Sequence record: OM386664.1
Length of the DNA: 64,000 nt
From: Escherichia phage vB_EcoM_ESCO50
Strand: one strand, 5' to 3'
The notes under the pieces were generated by a model. The model was not told where the DNA came from. It worked only from the letters and a program-made list of their open reading frames with translations, and searched no databases. A program made the translations under genes and the position numbers. Below, piece by piece: positions 6,369 through 50,283 of the stretch; position 1 is the first letter of the stretch; each line of letters opens with the position of its first letter.

Positions 6369-7154
6369 TTAGCTCTTTGCGTCTAAGAAGGTAACTTCTG
6401 GTGAAGAGAAGATTGCCTCGATATCCTCATCAGTTCTTGCATAAATGTAAGCATCGGCATCACTACCAAATGTCACAGCAATTCTGTGATTGCTCTTCGA
6501 CAGGTGGGTAACTAGAGCGTTACTTAGAGACATCTTTTCAACCGGAGGGTTACTTTGATGTATCTTACCTTTTCTTCGTCTGAAGAGGGTAACTGCGTTA
6601 TCTGTGAACACAACTACACCTGCAAAGTATTCTGGTTCACAGTAGTTTTTCCAACCTGAGTGTAACTCGTTGTACATCTCTGTCTCGTAGACATACAGAT
6701 AAACATCTACACTCTTCATCACCTGATTGATGATAACTGTGACAGCTTGAGGGTCAAGTCCACCGATACCTGCACCAATCATAGGTAAACCAACTTTCTT
6801 CAACTGGTTAACTTCACAGTATCTGTTAAGTTGCTTCAAAGATGACTCTAAAGCACTGTATCGGGCGTCTTTACCAGTCTTAAGCTGAGTGTAAAGGTTA
6901 GCTATACGACCTTGTTTTAAACGTGCTACAGAGAAATTACCCAGTAAATTTTCACAGGGTTTGTGGCCTATACCACCTGCATAGAGGTAAACTTCTGTAT
7001 CGGTCTCATATGCTTTTGGGTAAAGTTTAGAAATCTTGTCAGCGATACCTGCACCCATTAAATTCATACAGTTGCAACCGTGACCAATGATGTCAAACTT
7101 ACCTTTATCAAAGGCGTCAAAGATATCACCATTGATGATTTTTACAATACCCAT
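6369..7154 (-). CDS. Macro-domain-like protein (ADP-ribose binding/processing) with ~100 aa C-terminal extension
   Basis: N-terminal GDIFDA...DIIGHGCNCMNLMGAGIA and later GLPMIGAGIGGLD resemble macro-domain glycine-rich loops; motif recognition only. Confidence 0.45.
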   Translation of the reverse strand: MGIVKIINGDIFDAFDKGKFDIIGHGCNCMNLMGAGIADKISKLYPKAYETDTEVYLYAGGIGHKPCENLLGNFSVARLKQGRIANLYTQLKTGKDARYSALESSLKQLNRYCEVNQLKKVGLPMIGAGIGGLDPQAVTVIINQVMKSVDVYLYVYETEMYNELHSGWKNYCEPEYFAGVVVFTDNAVTLFRRRKGKIHQSNPPVEKMSLSNALVTHLSKSNHRIAVTFGSDADAYIYARTDEDIEAIFSSPEVTFLDAKS

Positions 7155-7355
7155 TTAACATCTCTCCCAAGATTCTTTATCTTCTGAAGGCTTTACACGT
7201 TGCCCTTCGTGGTCTACCCAGATGCACCCACATCCTTCACAGATTACTGGCATTGCATAGCCAGCTTTGAAGTCATCTTCAGTGATAAGACCTTTTAAGT
7301 CACCTGTATCACGTCCAAACATTTCGATAGAACAGTCTTTGCAGAAGTCAGCCAT
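7155..7355 (-). CDS. Small zinc-ribbon protein (66 aa; CKDC...CEGCGC)
   Basis: Two Cys pairs; directly abuts the macro-domain gene. Confidence 0.45.
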   Translation of the reverse strand: MADFCKDCSIEMFGRDTGDLKGLITEDDFKAGYAMPVICEGCGCIWVDHEGQRVKPSEDKESWERC

Positions 7356-7367
7356 ATAATATACACC

Positions 7368-7595
7368 TTATAGTTCGGTTTCTCGTAACTCTTTACCTTC
7401 ATCATAGAAGCATTTATAGAATGTGTCTATAGAGATTCTGGCAAAGGTGAGGTCTTCAAAGTATTCCTCTGGAGTTGTCCCTGTAAAACTAAAACTATCG
7501 AGGCTGTAAAATGGTATCACTGTGTCGTGACTCACGAAAACACATGCTGACGTGACTTCTCCAGTATCTTTGTCAATTACCTCTAGAGCTTTCAT
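7368..7595 (-). CDS. Hypothetical acidic protein (75 aa)
   Basis: ORF. Confidence 0.4.
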   Translation of the reverse strand: MKALEVIDKDTGEVTSACVFVSHDTVIPFYSLDSFSFTGTTPEEYFEDLTFARISIDTFYKCFYDEGKELRETEL

Positions 7596-7896
7596 AGCTT
7601 ACCTTTTCGGTTAGTTCATATAAATCAACATGCTCAATGCTGTCAATGTTGATATCAATCTTTTTGAAACGTTCTATCACTTCGTTGGCAGTCATCCATA
7701 TCAGACACCAATGATTCTTGATGGATTCTTCAAGAAGGTCAACACAGTCTTTAAAGGTTTTTGTATCACTCCTTGTTCCGACTACTGCAATTGTCCCATA
7801 TAGCCACTTACCATTGTCATAAGATACTTGTGCTACACCAACCTCTTTATCTTTCTCGTAGTAAACGGCTACAAAGTCTCTTCCATTAATCTGCAT
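7573..7896 (-). CDS. Hypothetical protein (107 aa)
   Basis: ORF. Confidence 0.45.
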   Translation of the reverse strand: MQINGRDFVAVYYEKDKEVGVAQVSYDNGKWLYGTIAVVGTRSDTKTFKDCVDLLEESIKNHWCLIWMTANEVIERFKKIDINIDSIEHVDLYELTEKVSYESSRGN

Positions 7897-7898
7897 AG

Positions 7899-8168
7899 TT
7901 ACTTCCTCGTTTTAAGAACTGCTAAGATTTCTTTAGAGTCTGGTAAGAACCATGTGTAGTGATTTTCTTTGATTTCTGGATGAGTGTCAACCTTTATTTT
8001 GCACTCTTTACCAACATGCTTAAGCTGTGCTGTGACACCTTGCATAAAGATATGGCACATCACATTATCCATAATGGTTGGTGAGAAATCAATTCGCATA
8101 TAAGTTTCTTTTGGTCGTGGTAACAGTAAGTAACCCTCTACATAGAAAGTATCTTGATTCTCTGTCAT
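7899..8168 (-). CDS. Hypothetical protein (89 aa)
   Basis: ORF. Confidence 0.45.
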   Translation of the reverse strand: MTENQDTFYVEGYLLLPRPKETYMRIDFSPTIMDNVMCHIFMQGVTAQLKHVGKECKIKVDTHPEIKENHYTWFLPDSKEILAVLKTRK

Positions 8169-8434
8169 TGCTGCTTATTCCCTAATAAAATCATGTCAAT
8201 AAGGTTGTTAGCTTTGATTGTGCACTGGTAAAAGCCGTCACGATAGAACTCAAGTGCTGCTGCTACATCACTGCCTGTGTTACCTTTGATGATATACCGT
8301 GATTCTTCTTGAGTGTACTTATCACTCTCACTTACTTGGGAGTTTTTGAATGTACTGCTCACTTTGTTCGTTGAACACCCTGACATAGTTATCAGTAACA
8401 CAAACATTATAAAACTCTGGCTTAGTTTTTTCAT
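8165..8434 (-). CDS. Putative lipoprotein, possible outer-membrane spanin (Rz1-like), in a different frame overlapping the 3' end of the upstream gene
   Basis: Signal peptide with lipobox-like ITMSGC; ~107-nt out-of-frame overlap with 8328-8675. Confidence 0.4.
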   Translation of the reverse strand: MKKLSQSFIMFVLLITMSGCSTNKVSSTFKNSQVSESDKYTQEESRYIIKGNTGSDVAAALEFYRDGFYQCTIKANNLIDMILLGNKQQ

Positions 8435-8675
8435 ATGTTAGTACCTCTTTTGTATGCTTATTCTTAGCAAGCACATCTTTCAAATCATTTTTGTAATTGG
8501 TGCTCAGTGTGGCTAACCCTTCCTGATAAGCATCTTTAGCAACACTTATGAGCTTCTGATTGTTTAGCTCAGCTTCAGCAACTTGATAGTCTCTGTAAGA
8601 GTATCCTCCCCAGACACCTGCCCCAACTAAGAAAACAATTATGAAAGTGGCTTGACAGAACTCTTTAAATGTCAT
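8328..8675 (-). CDS. Putative inner-membrane spanin (Rz-like): N-terminal TM helix plus coiled-coil region
   Basis: TM segment FIIVFLVGAGVWGGY, charged helical remainder; overlapping lipoprotein ORF. Confidence 0.4.
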   Translation of the reverse strand: MTFKEFCQATFIIVFLVGAGVWGGYSYRDYQVAEAELNNQKLISVAKDAYQEGLATLSTNYKNDLKDVLAKNKHTKEVLTYEKTKPEFYNVCVTDNYVRVFNEQSEQYIQKLPSK

Positions 8676-8694
8676 TTAACAATCTCCTGAAATG

Positions 8695-8715
8695 AAAAAG
8701 GCTCCCGAAGGAGCC
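8695..8715 (-). terminator. Hairpin GGCUCC-UUCG-GGAGCC followed by U-run on minus transcript, immediately upstream of RBS of gene 8328-8675
   Basis: Inverted repeat with UUCG tetraloop and U-tract. Confidence 0.5.
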
Positions 8716-8727
8716 TGTATCTTAACC

Positions 8728-9192
8728 TTAACCGAGGACTTTAGCAAGGATATTCGCAGCCATCGAAGAGGCTTTTGCAGCAGCAACTACGCCAGCTTTG
8801 ATAGCACTATCCTTGATAGCAGATACCGTTGCAGCATCAGTAAAGAGATAAGTAGTTGTTTTAGAACCACTTGTAAAGGAAAGCATAAGAGCAGTTTCCA
8901 GATTGAAAGAGCGATACGGAGCACCTTCTTTAACGATACCTTCAGCACCTAACTCTGAAGCCATACCCATATCATAGATAGTCATCAGGTTTTCTTTGTG
9001 TGCAGTCGTTGAACCAGCACCTTTGACGTGTTTCTTAACATTCAGAAGAGCACGATACTCCCGGATGTTACCGTCTGCTTTTACATTGACAGCACGGAAG
9101 ATTTTACCTTCAAAGTTGCTCTTGATAATGTTACGAACTACTTCAGATTTGTTTGCTGTAACGTCCAGTGCTACCGTAATGATACTGTTCAT
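8728..9192 (-). CDS. Hypothetical protein (154 aa)
   Basis: ORF. Confidence 0.5.
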   Translation of the reverse strand: MNSIITVALDVTANKSEVVRNIIKSNFEGKIFRAVNVKADGNIREYRALLNVKKHVKGAGSTTAHKENLMTIYDMGMASELGAEGIVKEGAPYRSFNLETALMLSFTSGSKTTTYLFTDAATVSAIKDSAIKAGVVAAAKASSMAANILAKVLG

Positions 9193-9201
9193 AAGTTTCT
9201 C

Positions 9202-9897
9202 TCAATGTTTAACTAACATGGTTTTAATGTGTGGAAGGATTCTGTTTACCTTCTGCACATTCTTCTCTGTATCTTCTATAAAACATACTATATTAAAGTA
9301 AGGCAGAATGCAAGACTGAATCATCCTCACTTTCAAACTTTCTGCACTTATAGAGTTAGCCCCAAAACCACGCATAAAAAGCATGTAGTCATGCTCTATG
9401 TAATGCCTTAAAAACATCTCAGTAGGTATTCTCTGAGATTCACCCCTCGCTGTCAAGAGTCCAATGGCAGCATGGTTGGCAATTGCATCAATAATATTGA
9501 AAACATACGTTGGTTTTGCACTTACAGAGTCAAGCAAATTAGTGTACTGTGAAAATGAACCATCAATCAGTTCCGTTGAGCAATCTTCGTGATTAAAATT
9601 TGTAAGAACACCATCAATATCTGCTAAGATGAGGTTACCTTTTTCTACAAGGTCTTTATTGACTATGACTAAACTGTCACGTCTTACACCTATAGATTGC
9701 CCCGTCTCTTTATCCACAACGTTCACAATCGGTTCTGAAGTGTGGAACTCTTCAAGTGAACATACAACTTCTCTTGCAGTGTCTTCAAAATCCCTACACT
9801 GTTCTGGAGTCCATACACCGGAATCAAGACCTAACTCATGAGGGTGTAAGTCATAAGCATGACACAGTACTTCATCAGACTTTCTTAATTTTTTCAT
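9202..9897 (-). CDS. HAD-superfamily phosphatase-like protein
   Basis: Motif I ILADIDGVLT (DxDG), motif II LLTAR. Confidence 0.45.
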   Translation of the reverse strand: MKKLRKSDEVLCHAYDLHPHELGLDSGVWTPEQCRDFEDTAREVVCSLEEFHTSEPIVNVVDKETGQSIGVRRDSLVIVNKDLVEKGNLILADIDGVLTNFNHEDCSTELIDGSFSQYTNLLDSVSAKPTYVFNIIDAIANHAAIGLLTARGESQRIPTEMFLRHYIEHDYMLFMRGFGANSISAESLKVRMIQSCILPYFNIVCFIEDTEKNVQKVNRILPHIKTMLVKH

Positions 9898-10423
9898 GGT
9901 TTACCTTAGAAATGTTTGTTGCAAATTCACATTGAGCAATAACTTTCATGTTGTTATAGACATCTTGAGAATATTTCTTAGCTTTAGGGATTCTGTACGA
10001 ATACCCAGCATTATATGATGCTAAAACTTTTTGTAAAGTCTTCTTTGACTTTGGATGACCATGTACCTTTGTCCAAAACTCAAGCTCTTTGTGAGTTTCC
10101 TTCGCAGCATAATCAAAGTCTCTTAAGAGTTTCTTTTTAGCCACATTAGGACTAATTTTGTTACGCTTTACAACAGTCTTCAAGTGATTCTGGAAAATAC
10201 CATAATCGTGTGTCTTTTTATTCTCTACCTTCAGACCTAACTCTGACTCTTGTAAGGCTATAGCAGCTAGAGTGATACCCCAACCTTTACCCATGTTATT
10301 CTCACCATACTGGTAAGCTTTTAACATGTTTACTTTTTGACTAATTGATAGCTCTGGGCAGTCAACTGCATAAGATAAGTGTGCTATAAACATTAAGCAC
10401 AAACCTAGAATCAATTTCTTCAT
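9875..10423 (-). CDS. Secreted lytic transglycosylase (SLT domain) with N-terminal signal peptide
   Basis: Signal peptide MKKLILGLCLMFIAHLSYA; SLT motifs ALQESELG, YGIFQ, AYNAG. Confidence 0.65.
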   Translation of the reverse strand: MKKLILGLCLMFIAHLSYAVDCPELSISQKVNMLKAYQYGENNMGKGWGITLAAIALQESELGLKVENKKTHDYGIFQNHLKTVVKRNKISPNVAKKKLLRDFDYAAKETHKELEFWTKVHGHPKSKKTLQKVLASYNAGYSYRIPKAKKYSQDVYNNMKVIAQCEFATNISKVNHEKIKKV

Positions 10424-10483
10424 TGGTTCCCCTGTTTAGTTTATCGTAACAACAATTATACAGCACTCTGCACAAAATACAAA

Positions 10484-10510
10484 TAAAAAAGGCCGCCGAA
10501 GCAGCCTTTT
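10484..10510 (-). terminator. Rho-independent terminator (GGCUGC-UUCG-GCGGCC plus U-run) between lytic transglycosylase and rIIB-like gene
   Basis: Inverted repeat flanked by A-run and T-run. Confidence 0.5.
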
Positions 10511-10523
10511 AAGAAATTACTTA

Positions 10524-11633
10524 TTAGATTTCACGTTTACGTTGAGAGATAAGTTCACCAGCAGTGCCAACGATGACATGCAAAGCTTCAGTCTTACCAT
10601 CCCATGCTTTCAGCACTTTACGTTGATTATCAACGATTGCTGCAACTTCATAACGAGAGGAACGCATCTTCATATCGTTGTAATCAGTTGGAACAGATAC
10701 AACATCTCGTGGATGGACACGAACCTTCAGGATGGTATCACCTGAGAAGCAACGAACATAATCCCAAGCACCAACATGAAGACCTTGAGAGCAAGTTACG
10801 TTACGGTTGTTATCAACCATCCAACGTGGCATCTCTACAATGTTACCCAAATCATTAGGTACTCTGTAGGTGTGGGAGTCAACCAGCTTGCCTTCACGAG
10901 TAGATACTTTCTTCCAACCAATGATGTAGCCTTCTTCATCAATTTCAACATCAAGGTGAGATACAAAGCCCCAAAGTTGTTCTACAGAGTCTTTAGATGG
11001 GTTTTCCATCAGTTTTTCGAAGAACATCACAAGGCGTTCAAAACCTTTATCTCCAGTCTTCATCATGTGAAGAATACGGTCAACCAGAGTAGAACGCATC
11101 TCAACAGCACCGTAGAATAGCTTGTCGCCTTTGATTGTGATAGCACCCTGAGTGAAGTTTTCGATAGACTTACGAATGTTCATCAGTTCAAATGCTTTCT
11201 TGAACTCACCCTTCACAACATGAACTACAATCTCTTGATAGTTTGGATGAGTAGACTCAACAATTTCAGATTCTGAACCATAAGTCATAATTACAGAATC
11301 ACCAGTAATCATGTACTCAATATTGTCATCTTTCTGCATAGCTTCATGCAGTTTATTTACCGGAGCTTTCTGTACAGGCTCTTTAACAGCCTTTTTAACT
11401 GGCTTATCAGCTTTCTTTTTAAAGGTCTTAGCAACTTGCTTTAAAGTCTTCGTAGCTGGTGTAGAAGTTGCCTTTTTATTCCCTTTTAAGGTTGCTTCAT
11501 GACGCTCTACAGCACGACCGACTGAACGGGTTGATGTGTTAAATTTCTGTGCAATAGCTGTTTTAGTCAGCTCGCCCTCTTTAACCAGTTTGTAAATTTC
11601 TGCGTCAATCTGTGCTTTAGTTTTAGTAGTCAT
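10524..11633 (-). CDS. Possible rIIB-like protein (369 aa); N-terminal HTH-like segment, Lys/Ala/Pro-rich linker
   Basis: Sits immediately downstream of the rIIA-like gene; assignment rests on position, not on recognised motifs. Confidence 0.3.
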   Translation of the reverse strand: MTTKTKAQIDAEIYKLVKEGELTKTAIAQKFNTSTRSVGRAVERHEATLKGNKKATSTPATKTLKQVAKTFKKKADKPVKKAVKEPVQKAPVNKLHEAMQKDDNIEYMITGDSVIMTYGSESEIVESTHPNYQEIVVHVVKGEFKKAFELMNIRKSIENFTQGAITIKGDKLFYGAVEMRSTLVDRILHMMKTGDKGFERLVMFFEKLMENPSKDSVEQLWGFVSHLDVEIDEEGYIIGWKKVSTREGKLVDSHTYRVPNDLGNIVEMPRWMVDNNRNVTCSQGLHVGAWDYVRCFSGDTILKVRVHPRDVVSVPTDYNDMKMRSSRYEVAAIVDNQRKVLKAWDGKTEALHVIVGTAGELISQRKREI

Positions 11634-11678
11634 CTTATTACTCTCTCTTTTTTAATTAATAAATCATTTTGTGAGGCT

Positions 11679-11708
11679 ATTCTAAGGGGCTTCAAAGCCC
11701 CTTGTCAA
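11679..11708 (-). promoter_or_regulatory. Sigma70-like promoter TTGACA-N18-TAGAAT with hairpin AGGGGCT..AGCCCCT in the spacer
   Basis: Hexamers read on minus strand upstream of 10524-11633. Confidence 0.5.
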
Positions 11709-11713
11709 GAACC

Positions 11714-14080
11714 TTAATCGTAAACTGTTGTACCTTCTGGAACACATTTCACATTAAAGCCTAAAAACTTACTCACTTCAATAGGTGACACTTTATTCCA
11801 ATCTAAATGGGAAAGCAAGAAATTTTCTTGTTTTCTTTTTGAAAGGTAGTTTGTCACCTTAATAACCATACGGTCACCAGCTTTCCTGATTTTCTTGTAA
11901 AGCTTTGTGTTATTGTCAAGACACCCTTTCAGAGTTTGCAAGACACTAATAGTGTAAGTGTACGCAAACGGTGCAGCAACGTATTGGATTTTACCGAACA
12001 TTGCCTCTACAGCCTCTTCATTACCTTCTAGGAAGATAGTTTTGTTAGTATCTCGTGAATAGCAATAACCACGAGAAATCTTCCTGTTATTGAATGTAAA
12101 GTTTCTGGCAATAATCCAACTGCTTGTAAGGTCAAGAACACCATTCATGTAGATGCGTGTCATATACCTGTTATGATTAATCCAATGAACATCCGTTAAG
12201 CTGTCGTTCAAGAGCTTCTCATCTACTTCAATCCAGTCTTCTGGTATCTTTTTCCAATTTGCTTTTCGGAAAACATAGACTGTCTTACCTGTAACATTAG
12301 CAACTGACTTAGCTACATCCTCTGGAGATGAGCAAAAACATCTACCATCAACTGTGTCACCTACTGCCTTAATATAAAGCTGAGGCTCTTCAATTGTGTC
12401 TAAGTCTTCTGACACCTCTTTGTATGAAGCTTTAGTTTCTGCTGGAACAGCTTTCCAGAGTTTTACAACACCTCTTACAGCTTCTTTACGCTGATAGTGA
12501 TGTTCCTTATCAGACATCTTCACAATCTTTAACAAGCTTTTATCAAGTTTGTGCAGATTGATTAAGTCATCTAGCTCTTTCTCTGTAGAGAATACAAAGA
12601 CAATACCATTGTATCTGTGAAACAGATTTGACTCACTGGCGTAGTCTCGACATGCACCACGCAAAATTTGATTGCGTCCTACAGTCTTCTCAGTACCGTT
12701 TTTATTGCGACGGTCATTAATCACGAACAAAAACTGTTCAATTTGGCTTTTACGCATTGCACCAAAGATATTGAACATGCTTGCCTCTTGAGTGTAGGAA
12801 AGTGCTGTTACACGAATCTTACTCTCTAAAGAGTTGAACTTGACATAAGCAACTGGGTCATAAAGATAATCTACTTTAGGGATATTGTTCCCGTTCCTAT
12901 CAACCTTAATATTGCCTTTACCATCACGTTCATAAATGACTGAGCCGTCTTCTGCGTAGATAATTCCACGACGAATGTTTAACAATTCTTCTTCCAGAGA
13001 ATCAAGCTTAACGCCTCCCCACTCTAGCTTTGGACACACAGCATTAAACATCTCTCGTGAGTTCAAACGTAACTCTGCATAAGCCTGTGCAGCATCCATG
13101 AGTGTAGGTTGGCTATTAACTTTCTTGATAACATCCTTTGTAATTGCTTCAGTTATCTTTTTGGTAGCCTCGATGATAACATTTTTTGTCGTATCATTCA
13201 TCTGCAATGCTTCACGAGAAGCTGCTATAGCAACTGAACCAATAGGCATGTAGATGTTTACAAGGTCTACGCTCCTACGGAAAAACTCTGGCAAGACTTT
13301 GAAGAAATCATCACCAAGTAATGCTTCCATGTTCACTGGATAGGCAATATTACCCATCACCACATTAAACTCTAGCCTATTACCACTAGAACGCCAGCTT
13401 TGCTTATGAATCATGGCATCATAAACACCTTCTTCACGGGCAATGACGTTCATATCTGCTAATACATCGTCGTACTCAATATTACTTTCTGGTTTTACAG
13501 CAAAGTATGAGTACACATTTCCAGCTTCTTCAAAGAACTTTGAGATACGGTGGTCAGCAACTGCCACACGTACAGCTAAACCATTAGGTTCTTTTGTTGG
13601 GTTAGTGGTCAGCTTAGTTACTTGAGGGATACCATTCTCAAGATAAACAGAGTACTTATTAACAACACCATCAACATAGCTAGATACTGTGAATGACTGA
13701 GCAATTGCAAATGGAGATTTTGAGCCGATACCCATTGCACCAATGTAGTCATTAGAGTCATTCTTCGTAGAAGCCCCGTAGTTTAGGTACAAACTCATAA
13801 CTTTATCATGAGTCAATCCAGTTCCAAAATCACGAACTTCAAAGTAAGGCTCAAAACGAGTAGGTAAATGCACATGGAACGGGATATTCTCTTTTCCAGC
13901 TTCTTTCTGAGCATCTACTGCATTGCATGACAGTTCACGAATCACTGCCCTTTCTTTAAATGTGTATACACCAGAACTCAGAAGGCTGAACATTTCAGGT
14001 GTCATTGTAATCTGTGCTTGAGATGTCTCCAAAGAAGTTGAACTCTTAATCACTTCTGCGTGGTCATTTACCATGCGCAT
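11714..14080 (-). CDS. rIIA: rIIA-like protein with N-terminal GHKL (Bergerat-fold) ATPase domain
   Basis: N-box ELSCNAVDA, G1 DFGTG, G2 GAMGIGSKS; 788 aa, comparable to T4 rIIA. Confidence 0.55.
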   Translation of the reverse strand: MRMVNDHAEVIKSSTSLETSQAQITMTPEMFSLLSSGVYTFKERAVIRELSCNAVDAQKEAGKENIPFHVHLPTRFEPYFEVRDFGTGLTHDKVMSLYLNYGASTKNDSNDYIGAMGIGSKSPFAIAQSFTVSSYVDGVVNKYSVYLENGIPQVTKLTTNPTKEPNGLAVRVAVADHRISKFFEEAGNVYSYFAVKPESNIEYDDVLADMNVIAREEGVYDAMIHKQSWRSSGNRLEFNVVMGNIAYPVNMEALLGDDFFKVLPEFFRRSVDLVNIYMPIGSVAIAASREALQMNDTTKNVIIEATKKITEAITKDVIKKVNSQPTLMDAAQAYAELRLNSREMFNAVCPKLEWGGVKLDSLEEELLNIRRGIIYAEDGSVIYERDGKGNIKVDRNGNNIPKVDYLYDPVAYVKFNSLESKIRVTALSYTQEASMFNIFGAMRKSQIEQFLFVINDRRNKNGTEKTVGRNQILRGACRDYASESNLFHRYNGIVFVFSTEKELDDLINLHKLDKSLLKIVKMSDKEHHYQRKEAVRGVVKLWKAVPAETKASYKEVSEDLDTIEEPQLYIKAVGDTVDGRCFCSSPEDVAKSVANVTGKTVYVFRKANWKKIPEDWIEVDEKLLNDSLTDVHWINHNRYMTRIYMNGVLDLTSSWIIARNFTFNNRKISRGYCYSRDTNKTIFLEGNEEAVEAMFGKIQYVAAPFAYTYTISVLQTLKGCLDNNTKLYKKIRKAGDRMVIKVTNYLSKRKQENFLLSHLDWNKVSPIEVSKFLGFNVKCVPEGTTVYD

Positions 14081-42149: not shown

Positions 42150-42266
42150 GGTTTTTAAGTGATGTAATGTAAGGCAAGGCAAGGCAAGGTGGGGTGTGGT
42201 CTGGCCAGGTTAGGTTCGGTGATGTCAGGTATGGGTAGTTAGTCTCAGCTACATTAAAATGAGACT
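42150..42266 (+). other. G-rich 5-nt-periodic element A ((CAAGG)4 then NNNGG pentamers) ending in hairpin AGTCTCA-GCTACATTAAAA-TGAGACT plus T-run; candidate structured ncRNA or DNA element
   Basis: Pentamer periodicity and terminal hairpin read from sequence; no ORF. Confidence 0.5.
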
Positions 42267-42289
42267 TACCTTTTTAAAAGGTCTTTAAG

Positions 42290-42412
42290 AGGGTTTTTTA
42301 ATGAGGTAGGGTAAAGTAATGCTTGGTCTGGTTTGGTAAGGCGCGGTCTGGTTTGGTAAGGTAAGGTTCGGTATGGTGTGGGTGGATGGTAGTAGCCACA
42401 TTAAAAATCTAC
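42290..42412 (+). other. G-rich 5-nt-periodic element B (GGTNN pentamers) ending in hairpin GGTAG-TAGCCACATTAAAAATC-TACC
   Basis: Second copy; same leader AAAAGGTCTTTAAGAGGGTTTTTTA, same loop, different stem. Confidence 0.5.
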
Positions 42413-42471
42413 CAAGTTTCTAAAGAGTCTTCTGTTGAGGGTTCTTTACAAACAACTTAACAATAAACTAA

Positions 42472-43520
<1,049 letters not shown>

Positions 43521-43531
43521 GTTGACTAGGT

Positions 43532-43555
43532 AGCCTCTTCGGAGGCTCCTTTTTA
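43532..43555 (+). terminator. Rho-independent terminator AGCCUC-UUCG-GAGGCU followed by UUUUU
   Basis: Tetraloop hairpin plus U-tract after stop of gene 43074-43520. Confidence 0.6.
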
Positions 43556-47254: not shown

Positions 47255-47295
47255 AACAAAAAAGGCTCCCGTAAAAAGGAGCCTTAAAATTTTAT
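47255..47295. terminator. Bidirectional rho-independent terminator (GGCUCC...GGAGCC flanked by A-run and U-run) between converging thyA and minus-strand genes
   Basis: Inverted repeat with A/T runs on both sides at the strand switch. Confidence 0.6.
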
Positions 47296-47297
47296 TT

Positions 47298-47663
47298 TCA
47301 GTGTTCTTCTGTATTCTTCTCAGTAATAGCTTGGAGGGCTGATACTGATTGAGCCAGATTATTCACACTGTCAGAGAATTTATCAAGAGTTTTGGTAAGT
47401 TTTGCGTTTTCACCCTTAACATTCTCTAACTGAACTTTCTGGTTCTCCATCCCTAACTGAAGCAATCTCATGTCAGACTGTAAATCACGAATAGCTGAAT
47501 AGTTACTACTTGTGTAATTATCCAACTGTTGTAACTTTGTTTTGACAGACACCTCTTGTTTACCACTTGACACTTGCATGGTGGTATACATTCCGATAAC
47601 ACTAAAAATACCAACTACAATTGCACCAATATTATTTTTAAAAGCTTCCTCTAGCCACTTCAT
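47298..47663 (-). CDS. Membrane-anchored coiled-coil protein (121 aa); possible lysis-associated protein
   Basis: N-terminal TM IGAIVVGIFSVIGMY then heptad-like region; follows tail fibre genes. Confidence 0.4.
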   Translation of the reverse strand: MKWLEEAFKNNIGAIVVGIFSVIGMYTTMQVSSGKQEVSVKTKLQQLDNYTSSNYSAIRDLQSDMRLLQLGMENQKVQLENVKGENAKLTKTLDKFSDSVNNLAQSVSALQAITEKNTEEH

Positions 47664-47858
47664 TTATTTCTCCCCCTTAAAAGCTTTTTCTAAGTTATCT
47701 ACGAACTCATCATCAATAGGTGTGTCTGTTTTACTCGCAAGATATCTTGCAAGCTTAAAGAACACTTTCTCAATCATGTATTCACTTAGAAGGGATAAAA
47801 TGAGCTTCCAGAAGAAGCTACCTAGATTTTTTAGAAGAATTGCTAGGATTGTAGGCAT
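47664..47858 (-). CDS. Small membrane protein (64 aa); holin-like candidate
   Basis: Hydrophobic N-terminal helix, charged C-terminus. Confidence 0.35.
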   Translation of the reverse strand: MPTILAILLKNLGSFFWKLILSLLSEYMIEKVFFKLARYLASKTDTPIDDEFVDNLEKAFKGEK

Positions 47859-47937: not shown

Positions 47938-50283
47938 TTAAGCAGTTCTTACCCAAGCCATCAGCTTATAGAACTGGTTAGTAACACTAAATGCTGAACC
48001 AGAGCCTGTACCGCCAGTGTTACCGCTTACTGTATGGGTGTGAGCACCAATACCAACACTGTGAGCATGGTTACCATTTGATGCAGCAGTACCAGAGATT
48101 GTGTGGGTGTGAGCACCAGCAGAATCAGTGTAACCCGGTCCTGTACCGATTCTACCACCACCACCGCCAGAATAGTGTGTAGAGTTCTGACCAATCCATG
48201 AGATAGCGTGGTTGTGGTTACCAGCAGATGAAGTAGAACCACTTACAGAGTGTGTGTGAGCACCAGTCGTGTTAGTGTTTTTTGTTCCGTAGTCAAACGA
48301 TGAGGTAGTCGCAGAAAAACTGTGCGTGTGTGAAGGTAAGTTTCCAACTGCTAACGTAACAGAATCTGAACCACCTGTTGTAGCAACATCTGAACCGTTT
48401 GCTGCTGCAATTCTGATAGTTCTACCAACACCATTGTTCAGATACGTCCAAGTTAGACCAGGCAGTGCTGTATTAGGGTCAACATTACTGTTAAACCACG
48501 TTACAATACCTACTGGATAGATTTTATTCAGGTCTGTAGAGTCACTTACTGCCTGCGCAATCTTCTGGTCAGTTTCTGCTTTAGTGTATGCGCCAATATC
48601 TGAAGGGGTTGGTTTAAATGCCGTTGAATACAACTGTGCCTCTCCAACATATTCTCCATCTGACCCATAAGCATATGTGAAGACATCAAGACCTCTAGAC
48701 CCATATGTAAAAGCAATGCCTCTGGCATGAGCAATACCAGCAGAGTGTGCTACATGGATGGCTAAATCTTTCAGACCCTGCTCAATATCGTTATTTCTTA
48801 CAAACCCTGAATAATCTTTATTGAATGACGCTGTGTCCTCCAACCTATTAGTTGTCCTTACCATTAAAGATTGGTTTAGCAGTTTTGTTTTTAAGAAATA
48901 CCTAGCATCTAAGTTAGACCAATCAGAAGGCTGTACTTGTCCAGTGATTTTGACAGTTTTATTCAACAAGAAATCATCTTGCATATAAATCGTAGTTAAA
49001 GTTCTGTCGTTGTGGATAATAAGCCTTGTTGGGTTGTCTCTTTCCCCGCTACCAATGTACCATCTTCTCGCATTATCAGCATTATAACCACCAATATATA
49101 GCTCATTGTCTTGTGTGGTGTTCTTTAGCCGTAACAGTGAGCCATTCTGGTTGATAACTTGCGCAGACCTGAAAGTGTTTACATCACTTAGCTTAGCAAG
49201 ATTACTCAAAGTCCCTGCCGGAATATATCTAGAGTCAATGTTAGTCCAGTCAGAAGGTTGTACTTGACCAGTTACAGTTAGTGTTTTATTGATATCAACA
49301 CTTGTCCCTACAGTAATTTTGCCACTAGTTTTGTAGTTTTCTAGAGCTACGTTATCACCTCCATTATTATTACCAATGTACCATCTGTTGGCACCTGTGC
49401 TATCAATCGCTTTAATGTACAATGGTTGTGCAGCATTGGCATTCTGTAGCCTAATTACTTCACCATCTTTTTTGAAAACATTTAGTTGGTTGAAAGTGTT
49501 AGAGCCACTAAAAGTATTATCAGCAGTTAACTGTGCAAATCTCTGATTAGCTACTGTCTGAGTGAAGTATCTAGCATCTAAGTTAGAGAAGTCCGAAGGT
49601 TGAACTTGGCCAGTGATTTGAATTGATTTATTCACAGAGATTAGGTTAGCTAAAATCGCTACGTATGCACCAGATTTAACGTTTTTTAAAACAAGGTTGT
49701 CTGTGTTTCTATTATCATTACCTAGATACCATCTGTTAGTGCCATCTGCATCTTGACCACGAATATAGAGTGGCATCCCTTGTGTGATATTCTTAAAAAT
49801 AAGGGCTTCATTGTCAGAGAGAATATTTTGAGTCCCAGAGAATGTGTTTGTTACAGCAAGCCTTGCATATCTTGCATCATTTTCTTCATTAGTTCTCATC
49901 CCAAGTTCATTAGGACTTGGTTTATTCAAAGTATGATAAACAGTTGCCGACCTTGAAGCATCTGCAATAGTTAGTTTAAGACCATTTGCGTTAATTTTAA
50001 AAGTCTTTAAAACATCCCCAATAGTAATCTCAGAAGAGCCTGTTGGGTCAAATACTGCCTTACCACCATAAAGTAACTTAACAATCCCTAAGTCACCCGT
50101 CATAGTGCTACCAGCAATCTGAACAAATCTTTCAAGTTTAAAAGATGCTAAGAAGTCTTGATAGGTCATTCGACGGTCTTCATCACCCAGCATTTCAGGT
50201 CTCTTTTTAACTCTGACATGAAGAAGGTCGTCTGAACGAATTGTATCAATTGAGTTTAATTCACTCAACTTGTAATCTGCCAT
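47938..50283 (-). CDS. Tail fibre protein (781 aa) with internal repeats and C-terminal His-x-His-rich module
   Basis: Repeated TGQVQPSD(W/F)(S/T)N(L/I)D(A/S)RY units; RWY(I/L)G motifs like T7 gp17; C-terminus HTHSF...HNHAI...HTHTI...HAHSV ending WVRTA. Confidence 0.7.

What the first reader, a model, noticed from the sequence alone, without database searches (positions are those of the whole stretch)
8165..10423. Lysis-type genes are scattered and the lytic transglycosylase carries a signal peptide
A lytic transglycosylase with a clear signal peptide (9875-10423) sits in the early/middle region. A candidate overlapping spanin pair (TM plus coiled-coil protein at 8328-8675 with an embedded lipoprotein at 8165-8434) lies 1.2 kb away, separated by a HAD phosphatase-like gene. 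Two small membrane proteins that could be holin or antiholin are at the far end of the late operon (47298-47858). A secreted transglycosylase outside a holin-endolysin cassette may instead serve cell-wall remodelling or superinfection exclusion.
Basis: partly seen in the sequence, partly recalled or inferred. Interest (0 to 1): 0.4.

Follow-up and report, generated by a model that had tools for sequence, protein, structure and literature searches.

The report
Felix O1-type phage scattered lysis genes
The window comes from a Felix O1-like phage whose lysis genes are known to be scattered, and the "secreted transglycosylase" is this phage's copy of the untested phage T4 protein Vs.1, not its main cell-wall-breaking enzyme, so the finding is real but ordinary.

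Summary
The window is a Felixounavirus, about 97% identical in DNA to Escherichia phage ESCO49.

- **Transglycosylase (9875-10423, minus strand).** This 182-aa protein has a cleavable signal peptide and an intact GH23 (SLT / goose-lysozyme) active-site signature. It is a homolog of phage T4 Vs.1. The family occurs in more than 2,100 phage records, and the Felix O1 GenBank record already notes the relationship.
- **Spanin pair (8328-8675 and 8165-8434).** This is a real two-component spanin pair. It is overlapped in the +1 frame, not embedded. It is homologous to a pair inside a canonical holin-endolysin-spanin cassette of a P2-like Yersinia phage.
- **Genes in between.** Two genes separate the transglycosylase from the spanins, not one.
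- **Main endolysin.** The genus's endolysin is the Felix O1 gp35 type. Its activity has been shown for phages CL1/C600M2. It lies outside this window.
- **Holin candidates (47298-47858).** These remain candidates. The support is one hydrophobic segment each and a position that matches T4 gene t.

Scattered lysis genes in Felix O1-like phages were published in 2010, 2015 and 2019. The only open question is what Vs.1-family periplasmic muralytic proteins do. Verdict: already known, low interest.

The parts
9875..10423 (-). Vs.1-family periplasmic GH23 (SLT / goose-lysozyme-like) protein, 182 aa. Signal peptide is residues 1-19 (about 10367-10423), with predicted cleavage SYA|VD. Catalytic residue is E59.
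   Evidence: ORF. phrog_600 E 4e-57. Pfam SLT 19.1 bits, below the 21.3 cutoff. 32% identity to T4 Vs.1, E 1e-16. Invariant E59, Q78, Y137, N138, G140, Y151 across the family. AF2 pLDDT 85. Foldseek top hits are all GH23. Best PDB profile hit is EtgA.
10455..10483 (-). Sigma-70-like promoter candidate for the Vs.1-like gene: TTTGTA, 17 nt, TATAAT.
   Evidence: Read from the sequence. Conserved in Felixounavirus and Suspvirus. The -35 element matches only 3 of 6, so the consensus scan did not report it. Function is inferred.
10487..10510 (-). Intrinsic-terminator-like hairpin after rIIB, upstream of the Vs.1-like gene.
   Evidence: -14.7 kcal/mol, z -4.0. Conserved.
9202..9897 (-). HAD-phosphatase domain protein annotated 'polynucleotide kinase' (231 aa). 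Its start overlaps the Vs.1-like stop by 23 nt. No kinase P-loop is visible.
   Evidence: phrog_3970 E 2e-133. Only the DxDG(T/V) motif region aligns with the phosphatase half of T4 PseT. Sequence.
8728..9192 (-). 154-aa conserved ORF of unknown function between the phosphatase gene and the spanins.
   Evidence: phrog_2267, unknown function. No Pfam or NCBIfam hit.
8699..8716 (-). Hairpin plus U-tract directly 5' of the i-spanin ribosome-binding site.
   Evidence: -14 kcal/mol, z -5.0. A hairpin sits at the same position, with a different stem sequence, in Kolesnikvirus Tian and Kuravirus Paul, where it is annotated as a terminator.
8328..8675 (-). i-spanin (115 aa): N-terminal transmembrane segment, helical periplasmic domain, conserved C-terminal KPxFxNxCxxDxYxxxFNE motif.
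   Evidence: phrog_1152 'Rz-like spanin' E 1e-41. Annotated i-spanin in relatives. Aligns with the i-spanin of the lysis cassette of Yersinia phage vB_YenM_324.
8165..8434 (-). o-spanin (89 aa): lipoprotein signal with lipobox Cys20 and a second conserved Cys71. It is in the +1 frame and overlaps the i-spanin gene by 107 nt.
   Evidence: Full-length ORF conserved in 399 phage records. C20-S-T is invariant in the alignment with the annotated o-spanins of phages Paul and YenM_324 (and the matching Tian ORF); C71 is conserved in those three homologs but not in T4 PseT.2.
47298..47663 (-). Holin candidate (121 aa): one N-terminal hydrophobic segment plus a coiled-coil-like tail. It is the last gene of the late tail-fibre operon.
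   Evidence: Annotated 'holin' or 'putative holin' in relatives with no experimental evidence found here. phrog_4038, unknown function. No holin Pfam family. No similarity to T4 T.
47664..47858 (-). 64-aa protein with a hydrophobic/amphipathic N-terminus. Function unknown; possibly a holin partner.
   Evidence: phrog_402, unknown function. No Pfam hit.
47262..47285 (.). Bidirectional terminator hairpin that closes the late operon after the 121-aa gene.
   Evidence: -14.3 kcal/mol, z -4.2.

Best explanation
The region is the ordinary early/middle gene block of a Felix O1-like myophage. The gene order is rIIA, rIIB, terminator, promoter, Vs.1-like gene, HAD-phosphatase gene, 154-aa ORF, hairpin, i-spanin/o-spanin.

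Shown:
- The 182-aa protein belongs to the T4 Vs.1 family.
- It has a lysozyme-like GH23 fold.
- It keeps the single catalytic glutamate and the substrate-groove motifs.
- Its Sec-type signal peptide and signal-peptidase-I site are conserved across the whole family.
- The family is strongly basic (pI about 9.4-9.8).

Inferred:
- It is exported early or in mid-infection by the host Sec system, processed, and sits in the periplasm as a muralytic enzyme of restrained activity.
- It is an accessory wall-cutting enzyme that pre-conditions or assists lysis. The proven precedent is the secreted, early-promoter transglycosylase-like Tgl of staphylococcal kayviruses.
- The main lysis route uses the separate soluble gp35-type endolysin (outside the window), a still-unproven holin, and the overlapped spanin pair at 8165-8675, which fuses inner and outer membranes last.
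- Whether it cuts as a lytic transglycosylase or as a hydrolase cannot be told from sequence.
For: - Genus identity and synteny.
- Vs.1 homology: E 1e-16; 2,124 phage records; family members named Vs.1 or SLT-domain; Felix O1 ORF3 note.
- Active site: E59, S60, Q78, Y137-N138-x-G140 and Y151 are invariant or nearly so.
- Fold: pLDDT 85. Top Foldseek hits are goose-type lysozyme, GH23 chitinase, Slt Cj0843, EtgA and MltE/D/F. The best PDB profile hit is EtgA, a signal-peptide-bearing specialised peptidoglycan glycosidase.
- Signal peptide with an AXA-type site in all aligned homologs, and high pI family-wide.
- Not the main endolysin: the gp35-type lysin is annotated elsewhere in the genus, its activity was shown, and it is absent from the window.
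- Not a virion protein: gp3 is not among the Felix O1 structural proteins found by proteomics.
- Own promoter-like element after a terminator.
- Functional precedent: Tgl.
- Spanins.
Against: - No experiment on any Vs.1-family protein was found in the held literature.
- The Pfam SLT score of this protein is below the gathering threshold.
- Foldseek E-values are weak (about 1e-2, TM about 0.5).
- From established T4 genetics (my own knowledge, not checked here), T4 e mutants do not lyse although vs.1 is present. So a Vs.1 protein alone does not lyse cells, and its contribution to lysis may be nil.
- A periplasmic muralytic enzyme made early needs some restraint, and none was identified.
- The promoter is only a consensus match with a poor -35 element.
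- Timing of expression was not measured.
Confidence: 0.55

Rival explanations
1. Non-lytic wall remodelling. The Vs.1-like enzyme works like the specialised transglycosylases of secretion systems (EtgA, IpgF, IagB, VirB1). It would make limited local cuts that let phage envelope-spanning assemblies such as spanin complexes thread the sacculus, or let the infected cell enlarge. It would play no direct role in the final lysis step.
For: - The closest solved relative by profile is EtgA. The protein shares its size, signal peptide and active-site residues E, D (D73 here), Q and YNxG.
- A Cys pair near the two ends of the mature protein in many family members suggests a periplasmic disulfide.
- The gene shares an apparent transcription unit with the spanin genes in Ounavirinae.
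- It sits in the early/middle gene block.
Against: - Linkage to spanins is not general. In T4, vs.1 and the spanin genes are 73 kb apart. No spanin-like pair was seen next to the Aeromonas CC2 homolog.
- D73 is not conserved in T4 Vs.1.
- No partner protein is known.
- Phages such as lambda assemble spanins without such an enzyme (established knowledge).
Confidence: 0.22
2. The secreted transglycosylase is the phage's true (Sec-exported) endolysin. It would be held inactive until the membrane is depolarised, as in Oenococcus phage fOg44 or in SAR endolysins.
For: - Signal peptide plus a muralytic fold.
- Some database records call it 'lysin' or 'putative lysin'.
Against: - The genus has a separate lysozyme-type endolysin with demonstrated lytic activity.
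- The hydrophobic core is short (13 residues) and has a cleavage site, so it is not a SAR domain.
- The gene is not next to any holin candidate.
- T4 e mutants with intact vs.1 fail to lyse (established knowledge).
Confidence: 0.05
3. Superinfection exclusion or competition. The periplasmic enzyme would alter the wall so that incoming phages cannot inject.
For: Only its early-region position and periplasmic location. It lies next to rIIA/rIIB, genes linked to exclusion phenomena in T4.
Against: - No known exclusion protein has this fold. T4 Spackle inhibits a lysozyme and is not itself one (abstract listed).
- Cutting glycan strands should help penetration by an incoming phage, not hinder it.
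- No supporting data were found.
Confidence: 0.06
4. The 121-aa and 64-aa proteins at 47298-47858 are not holin and antiholin. They would be unrelated membrane or coiled-coil proteins, for example tail-fibre assembly or membrane-anchored factors, and the real holin would lie elsewhere in the genome.
For: - No holin family match. The only weak hits are coiled-coil families and an 'Rz-like spanin' PHROG.
- No similarity to T4 T.
- The Meda genome announcement could not identify a holin.
- ESCO49 labels a second, different gene outside the window as 'holin'.
- Whichard et al. listed five alternative candidates.
Against: - It is the last gene of the late tail-fibre operon, exactly where T4 t lies.
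- It has a single transmembrane segment and a strong ribosome-binding site.
- It is conserved throughout Ounavirinae.
Confidence: 0.45

Closest known systems
Phage T4 Vs.1 (gene vs.1, between vs and regB) and its orthologs in T4-like and other phages (PHROG 600)
   Same: Homologous over the full length (32% identity, E 1e-16). Same size (181 vs 182 aa). Shares the N-terminal signal peptide, the E-S, G..Q and YNxG motifs, the basic pI, and a position among early/middle genes.
   Different: The Felix O1-type proteins have a Cys pair (C22, C165) and an Asp (D73) in the beta-hairpin that T4 Vs.1 lacks. The neighbours differ: rIIB and a PseT-like phosphatase here, regB and vs in T4.
EtgA / IpgF / IagB specialised peptidoglycan glycosidases of type III secretion systems (PDB 8URN, 4XP8)
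   Same: Best solved-structure match by profile (E 1e-3). About 150-180 aa, signal peptide, periplasmic. E, D, Q and Y-N-x-G active-site residues align.
   Different: The similarity is marginal, and no secretion-system partner such as EscI exists here. The protein is phage-encoded. Family membership is not established.
Tgl of staphylococcal kayviruses (secreted GH23 transglycosylase-like accessory endolysin)
   Same: Phage-encoded GH23 domain with a cleavable signal peptide. Host-RNA-polymerase-type promoter. Separate from the major late endolysin.
   Different: Gram-positive host. 230 aa with an extra central region. No sequence comparison with Tgl was run, so homology is untested. Tgl function was shown by experiment, whereas this protein is untested.
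Two-component spanins of the overlapped type (P2 LysB/LysC-like; the pair in Yersinia phage vB_YenM_324; the phiEco32-like phage Paul pair)
   Same: Both subunits are homologous (about 26-34% identity). Same +1-frame overlapped arrangement, lipobox Cys, and conserved second Cys in each subunit.
   Different: Here the pair is not in a lysis cassette. It sits in the early/middle block behind a hairpin, about 1.2 kb from the Vs.1-like gene.
T4 lysis gene layout (e, t, pseT.3/pseT.2, rI, rIII dispersed)
   Same: Lysis genes are dispersed. The spanin pair lies one gene from a PseT-type gene. The holin candidate is the last gene after the tail-fibre genes.
   Different: Spanins and the holin candidate show no detectable sequence similarity to the T4 proteins. 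The gene order around the PseT-like gene is different.

Membership tests
GH23 / SLT-domain lysozyme-like fold (family 1 lytic transglycosylase signature) | Catalytic Glu followed by Ser at the end of a helix (E-S motif) | tested here: met
   E59 is invariant and S60 nearly invariant in 14-sequence alignments spanning Ounavirinae, T4, Aeromonas, Ackermannviridae-like and Slopekvirus homologs.
GH23 / SLT-domain lysozyme-like fold (family 1 lytic transglycosylase signature) | G-x-x-Q and (A/S)-Y-N-x-G substrate-groove motifs | tested here: met
   G75..Q78 and S136-Y137-N138-A139-G140. Q78, Y137, N138 and G140 are invariant.
GH23 / SLT-domain lysozyme-like fold (family 1 lytic transglycosylase signature) | Score above the Pfam PF01464 gathering threshold | tested here: not met
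   19.1 bits against a 21.3 cutoff for this protein. Several distant family members do carry a precomputed PF01464 hit.
GH23 / SLT-domain lysozyme-like fold (family 1 lytic transglycosylase signature) | Lysozyme-like three-dimensional fold | tested here: met
   AF2 model pLDDT 85, pTM 0.79. The top 30 or so Foldseek PDB hits are nearly all GH23 enzymes, with probability about 1.0, but E about 1e-2 and TM about 0.5.
GH23 / SLT-domain lysozyme-like fold (family 1 lytic transglycosylase signature) | Non-hydrolytic cleavage giving 1,6-anhydro-MurNAc products | not testable with these tools
   Needs muropeptide analysis. EtgA-like enzymes with the extra Asp are themselves unresolved between muramidase and transglycosylase.
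T4 Vs.1 family (PHROG 600) | Full-length sequence homology to T4 Vs.1 and its orthologs | tested here: met
   BLASTP E 1e-16 over 174 aa. phrog_600 E 4e-57. A profile search returns proteins named Vs.1. See also the Felix O1 ORF3 note.
T4 Vs.1 family (PHROG 600) | N-terminal Sec-type signal peptide with small residues at -3 and -1 | tested here: met
   Judged by eye and by hydropathy. No dedicated predictor such as SignalP was available.
Canonical endolysin of a holin-endolysin lysis cassette | Adjacent to or co-transcribed with a holin, and the phage's principal muralytic enzyme | tested here: not met
   The neighbours are rIIB and a phosphatase. The principal lysin of the genus is a different gene located outside the window.
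SAR (signal-anchor-release) endolysin | Uncleaved, weakly hydrophobic N-terminal transmembrane domain of about 18-20 or more residues, rich in Gly/Ala/Ser | tested here: not met
   The hydrophobic core is 13 residues (LILGLCLMFIAHL) and is followed by an S-Y-A cleavage motif.
Two-component spanin (i-spanin + o-spanin) | i-spanin: N-terminal transmembrane segment plus a helical periplasmic domain | tested here: met
   Hydropathy peak at residues 6-24, and phrog_1152 E 1e-41.
Two-component spanin (i-spanin + o-spanin) | o-spanin: lipoprotein signal with a lipobox Cys, gene overlapping or adjacent to the i-spanin gene | tested here: met
   ...TMSG|C20-S-T, invariant in homologs. +1 frame with a 107-nt overlap.
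Two-component spanin (i-spanin + o-spanin) | Homology to a pair located in a recognised lysis cassette | tested here: met
   Yersinia phage vB_YenM_324 has holin, endolysin, i-spanin, o-spanin in order.
Two-component spanin (i-spanin + o-spanin) | Required for outer-membrane disruption (complements Rz/Rz1) | not testable with these tools
   Genetic complementation is needed.
Holin (121-aa ORF 47298-47663) | Small membrane protein with at least one transmembrane segment and a hydrophilic C-terminus | tested here: met
   One hydrophobic segment at about residues 11-30 and a polar coiled-coil-like tail.
Holin (121-aa ORF 47298-47663) | Homology to an experimentally proven holin or to a curated holin family | tested here: not met
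   phrog_4038, unknown function. No holin Pfam or NCBIfam match. No similarity to T4 T.
Holin (121-aa ORF 47298-47663) | Timed lethal hole formation that releases the endolysin | not testable with these tools
   Needs expression and complementation tests.

The most novel reading that the evidence does not exclude
Vs.1-family proteins form a large, never-tested class of Sec-exported, basic GH23 enzymes in virulent myophages of Gram-negative bacteria. They occur in more than 2,100 phage records: Tevenvirinae and other Straboviridae, Ounavirinae, and large ~157-kb Salmonella/Serratia phages (PMBT18, phiMAM1). In the most novel reading they are not endolysins. They would be early, non-lytic wall-remodelling factors, for example licensing spanin threading, allowing cell enlargement during delayed lysis, or tuning lysis timing.
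Probability: 0.22. Interest if true: 0.55.

Novelty: already known. Interest (0 to 1): 0.2.

Why it matters
For this window it matters little, because the layout and gene identities are already in GenBank records and published genome papers. There are two small points of value. First, the "putative lysin" label that some records give this ORF is misleading: it is the Vs.1 homolog, not the genus's proven endolysin. That is relevant to anyone mining Felix O1-like therapeutic phages for enzybiotics. Second, a conserved, exported, catalytically intact muralytic protein found in thousands of well-used phages, T4 included, still has no assigned role. A simple knockout in T4 or Felix O1 could settle it.

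Tried and rejected
- **Direct sequence search of PDB.** No hit. Only the family profile reached EtgA and goose lysozymes, and only weakly.
- **NCBIfam.** Nothing meaningful for any of the seven proteins.
- **Homology between T4 and Felix O1-type lysis proteins.** i-spanin vs PseT.3, o-spanin vs PseT.2, and the 121-aa ORF vs holin T showed no similarity beyond the lipoprotein signal. The T4 parallels are therefore positional only.
- **PNK-like ORF vs T4 PseT.** Only the HAD motif region aligns. I treat it as a phosphatase-domain protein, not a full kinase/phosphatase.
- **General Vs.1-spanin-PseT linkage.** Rejected. The genes are unlinked in T4, and no spanin-like pair lies beside the Aeromonas CC2 homolog.
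- **Literature on vs.1.** Only Nolan et al. 2006 and one comparative genomics paper mention it. One whole-word search returned only clinical papers. The T4 genome review PMC150520 is not held. The T4 omics paper does not mention vs.1 in its main text.
- **UE-M6 holin/endolysin paper.** Shows no link to Felix O1-like phages: the genus name is absent, its closest relatives are vB_EcoS_Uz-1 and pSb-1, and it has a canonical holin-endolysin pair.
- **Lipoprotein reading of the Vs.1-like signal (LGLC).** Rejected, because position -1 is Leu.
- **SAR reading.** Rejected, because the hydrophobic core is short and a cleavage motif follows it.


Full report
**What the window is.** Bases 7000-12000 match 277 phage records. 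The best is Escherichia phage vB_EcoM_ESCO49 at 97.4% over the full length, and nearly all named matches are Felix O1-like phages of Escherichia, Salmonella and Shigella (subfamily Ounavirinae, mostly genus Felixounavirus). Mapping the whole window on ESCO49 shows that it covers ESCO49 38.5-84.8 kb and then 0-16.1 kb. The window therefore holds the early/middle replication and nucleotide-metabolism block, the tail-fibre and baseplate genes, and part of the tail genes. It does not hold the 16-38 kb segment that carries the head genes, the tRNAs and the annotated "lysin".

**Checking the observation.**
- The 182-aa product of 9875-10423 (minus strand) begins MKKLILGLCLMFIAHLSYA|VD. It has two lysines, a 13-residue hydrophobic core, and Ser and Ala at -3 and -1.
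- The product of 8328-8675 has an N-terminal transmembrane segment and a helical tail.
- The 8165-8434 ORF encodes MKKLSQSFIMFVLLITMSG|C, a lipoprotein signal, behind an AAGAGG Shine-Dalgarno sequence.

Three details need correction.
- The lipoprotein ORF starts 241 nt into the i-spanin gene in the +1 frame, shares 107 nt with it, and continues 163 nt beyond its stop. The pair is "overlapped", not "embedded".
- Two genes lie between the transglycosylase gene and the spanins: the phosphatase-like ORF 9202-9897 and a 154-aa ORF 8728-9192.

**The transglycosylase-like protein.**
- *Family hits.* Pfam gives only a sub-threshold SLT hit (19.1 vs 21.3 bits). PHROGs places it in phrog_600, "unknown function" (E 4e-57).
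- *Distribution.* A tblastn search of the phage collection finds homologs in 2,124 records. Most are T4-like phages, and in one the hit is annotated "vs.1".
- *T4 Vs.1.* Direct comparison with T4 Vs.1 (NC_000866 61726-62271, between vs and regB) gives 32% identity over 174 residues, E 1e-16.
- *Conserved residues.* Alignments cover Ounavirinae, T4, Aeromonas CC2, Salmonella PMBT18, Klebsiella phiKp_9 and metagenomic members. E59, Q78, Y137, N138, G140 and Y151 are invariant, and S60, G63, G75, W117, S136 and A139 are nearly so. These are the E-S, G-x-x-Q and (A/S)YNxG motifs of GH23 enzymes.
- *Signal and charge.* Every member has an N-terminal signal-like segment ending in a small-x-small motif and a pI of 9.4-9.8.
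- *Structure.* An AlphaFold model built on the alignment is confident (pLDDT 85). Its best PDB matches are all GH23: goose-type lysozyme, the Ralstonia GH23 chitinase, Campylobacter Slt, EtgA, MltE, MltD and MltF. The E-values are modest, about 1e-2.
- *Closest solved relative.* The family profile's best solved relative is EtgA (E 1e-3). The alignment places E59, D73, Q78 and Y137-N138-x-G140 on EtgA's E42, D60, Q65 and Y116-N117-x-G119, the residues that Boorman et al. list as the active site. D73 is not conserved in T4 Vs.1, and even for EtgA the chemistry is unresolved between muramidase and transglycosylase. I therefore call the protein a GH23 muralytic enzyme and not a proven lytic transglycosylase.

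**This identification is not new.** The Felix O1 reference record annotates ORF3 as "hypothetical 20.7 KD protein in vs-regB intergenic region". Kolesnikvirus ST-3 labels its ortholog "Vs.1 conserved hypothetical protein", and Aeromonas CC2 labels its ortholog [quoted passage not shown]. Nolan et al. 2006 noted the marginal SLT match of vs.1 orthologs and suggested "some role in cell lysis". I found no experimental work on any family member in the held literature.

**Why it is not the main endolysin.**
- Whichard et al. assign Felix O1 lysis to gp35, a Phage_lysozyme / endolysin_autolysin protein, and note the absence of a holin-lysin cassette.
- ESCO49 annotates the ortholog at 32.5 kb.
- The identical lysin of the Felix O1-like phages CL1 and C600M2 was purified and shown to be lytic.
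- tblastn of that lysin against the window finds nothing.
- gp3 is not among the Felix O1 virion proteins found by proteomics, and a cleavable signal peptide also argues against a virion entry enzyme.
- From established T4 genetics (my own knowledge, not tested here), e-mutant infections do not lyse although vs.1 is intact. A Vs.1 protein is therefore not sufficient for lysis.

**Local transcription signals.** rIIB is followed by a strong hairpin plus U-tract (10510-10487, -14.7 kcal/mol, z -4.0). Next comes TTTGTA-17 nt-TATAAT (10483-10455, read), and then the Vs.1-like start. This arrangement is conserved in Felixounavirus and Suspvirus. The Vs.1-like stop overlaps the phosphatase-gene start by 23 nt. 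After the 154-aa ORF, a second hairpin plus U-tract (8716-8699, -14 kcal/mol, z -5.0) sits only about 24 nt before the i-spanin start. That leaves no room for a promoter, so the spanins are probably expressed by read-through (inference). A hairpin occupies the same place, with a different stem sequence, in Kolesnikvirus Tian and in the phiEco32-like phage Paul, where it is annotated as a terminator.

**The spanins.** The i-spanin matches phrog_1152 "Rz-like spanin" (E 1e-41). Close relatives annotate both genes as spanins. The full-length 89-aa ORF is conserved in 399 phage records. Distant homologs of both subunits (26-34% identity) form an overlapped pair in phage Paul. They also form one in the P2-like Yersinia phage vB_YenM_324, where they follow holin and endolysin in a classical cassette. 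The alignments keep the lipobox C20-S-T and a second Cys (C71) in the o-spanin, and a KPxFxNxCxxDxYxxxFNE motif with C92 in the i-spanin. This is good comparative evidence that both ORFs are translated and act as spanins. The mature o-spanin has no proline, unlike lambda Rz1, but its homologs are similar in this respect.

**The holin candidates.** The 121-aa ORF has one hydrophobic segment and a coiled-coil-like tail. The 64-aa ORF has a hydrophobic/amphipathic N-terminus. Both have strong ribosome-binding sites. They are the last genes of the late tail-fibre operon and are followed by a bidirectional terminator (47262-47285). This is the same position that T4 holin gene t holds after genes 37-38. 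However, there is no sequence similarity to T, no holin family match, and the family is confined to Ounavirinae. Annotations vary: "holin" or "putative holin" in some records, "hypothetical" in others. Meda's annotators found no holin, ESCO49 labels a second unrelated gene as holin, and Whichard et al. listed five candidates. I put the 121-aa protein at roughly even odds of being the holin.

**Most likely mechanism.**
- *Shown:* family identity, fold, an intact catalytic signature, a conserved export signal, and a separate principal endolysin.
- *Inferred:* the host Sec system exports the protein before late gene expression and signal peptidase I processes it. It then sits in the periplasm as a basic, wall-binding enzyme of restrained activity.

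The best-documented analogue in function is Tgl of staphylococcal kayviruses. Tgl is a GH23 protein with a cleavable signal peptide and a host-polymerase promoter. It is encoded apart from the major late endolysin, it lyses E. coli only when its signal peptide is present, and it lyses S. aureus once nisin collapses the membrane potential. I therefore favour an accessory, pre-positioned muralytic role that assists lysis, which is executed by the gp35-type endolysin, a holin and the spanins. The main rival is a non-lytic, EtgA-like local remodelling role. Superinfection exclusion has no support.

**Comparison and novelty.** Scattered lysis genes in Felix O1-like phages are stated outright for Felix O1, Moogle and Meda. 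The spanins and the Vs.1 relationship are already in public annotation. The finding is a correct but ordinary description of a known genome type. The remaining open question is the function of the widespread Vs.1 family. It is real, but this window neither raises it specifically nor makes it newly testable.

Noticed in passing
window 8699-8716 (-); L009 about 2245-2270; L010 1231-1252: A stable hairpin plus U-tract sits directly in front of the i-spanin ribosome-binding site. It is at the same position, but with different stem sequences, in Felixounavirus, Kolesnikvirus (Tian) and the phiEco32-like phage Paul. This suggests a conserved way of throttling or processing spanin mRNA.
   Followed up: partly
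window 6369-7154 (-); L010 1761-2201; T4 tk.4 (NC_000866 60922-61389): A macro-domain (Appr-1-p / O-acetyl-ADP-ribose deacetylase) gene lies about 1 kb downstream of the spanins here. One lies directly after the o-spanin in phage Paul. The T4 macro-domain gene tk.4 is two genes from vs.1. The Felix O1 record already notes the tk.4 relationship.
   Followed up: no
window 9202-9897 (-): The gene annotated 'polynucleotide kinase' in relatives shows only the HAD-phosphatase motif (ADIDGVL). It has no visible kinase P-loop, and its start overlaps the Vs.1-like stop by 23 nt. The adjacency of Vs.1 and this phosphatase is conserved across Ounavirinae, including Kolesnikvirus.
   Followed up: partly
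window 8728-9192 (-): A conserved 154-aa ORF (phrog_2267, unknown function) has an Ala-rich amphipathic C-terminus.
   Followed up: no
window 42165-43553 (+): A segment of about 1.4 kb is absent from the closest relative ESCO49. It carries two ORFs (200 aa, phrog_4652; 148 aa, phrog_5926), both of unknown function, downstream of the DNA ligase region.
   Followed up: partly
window 48612-49491 (-), within tail-fibre gene 47938-50283: The tail-fibre gene matches ESCO49 only in patches, with gaps at 48612-48895 and 49270-49491. This is consistent with mosaic receptor-binding regions.
   Followed up: no
window 10524-14080 (-): rIIA and rIIB lie immediately upstream of the Vs.1-like gene and are labelled 'lysis inhibitor' in many records. 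No rI or rIII homolog was looked for, so it is unknown whether Felix O1-like phages show lysis inhibition.
   Followed up: no
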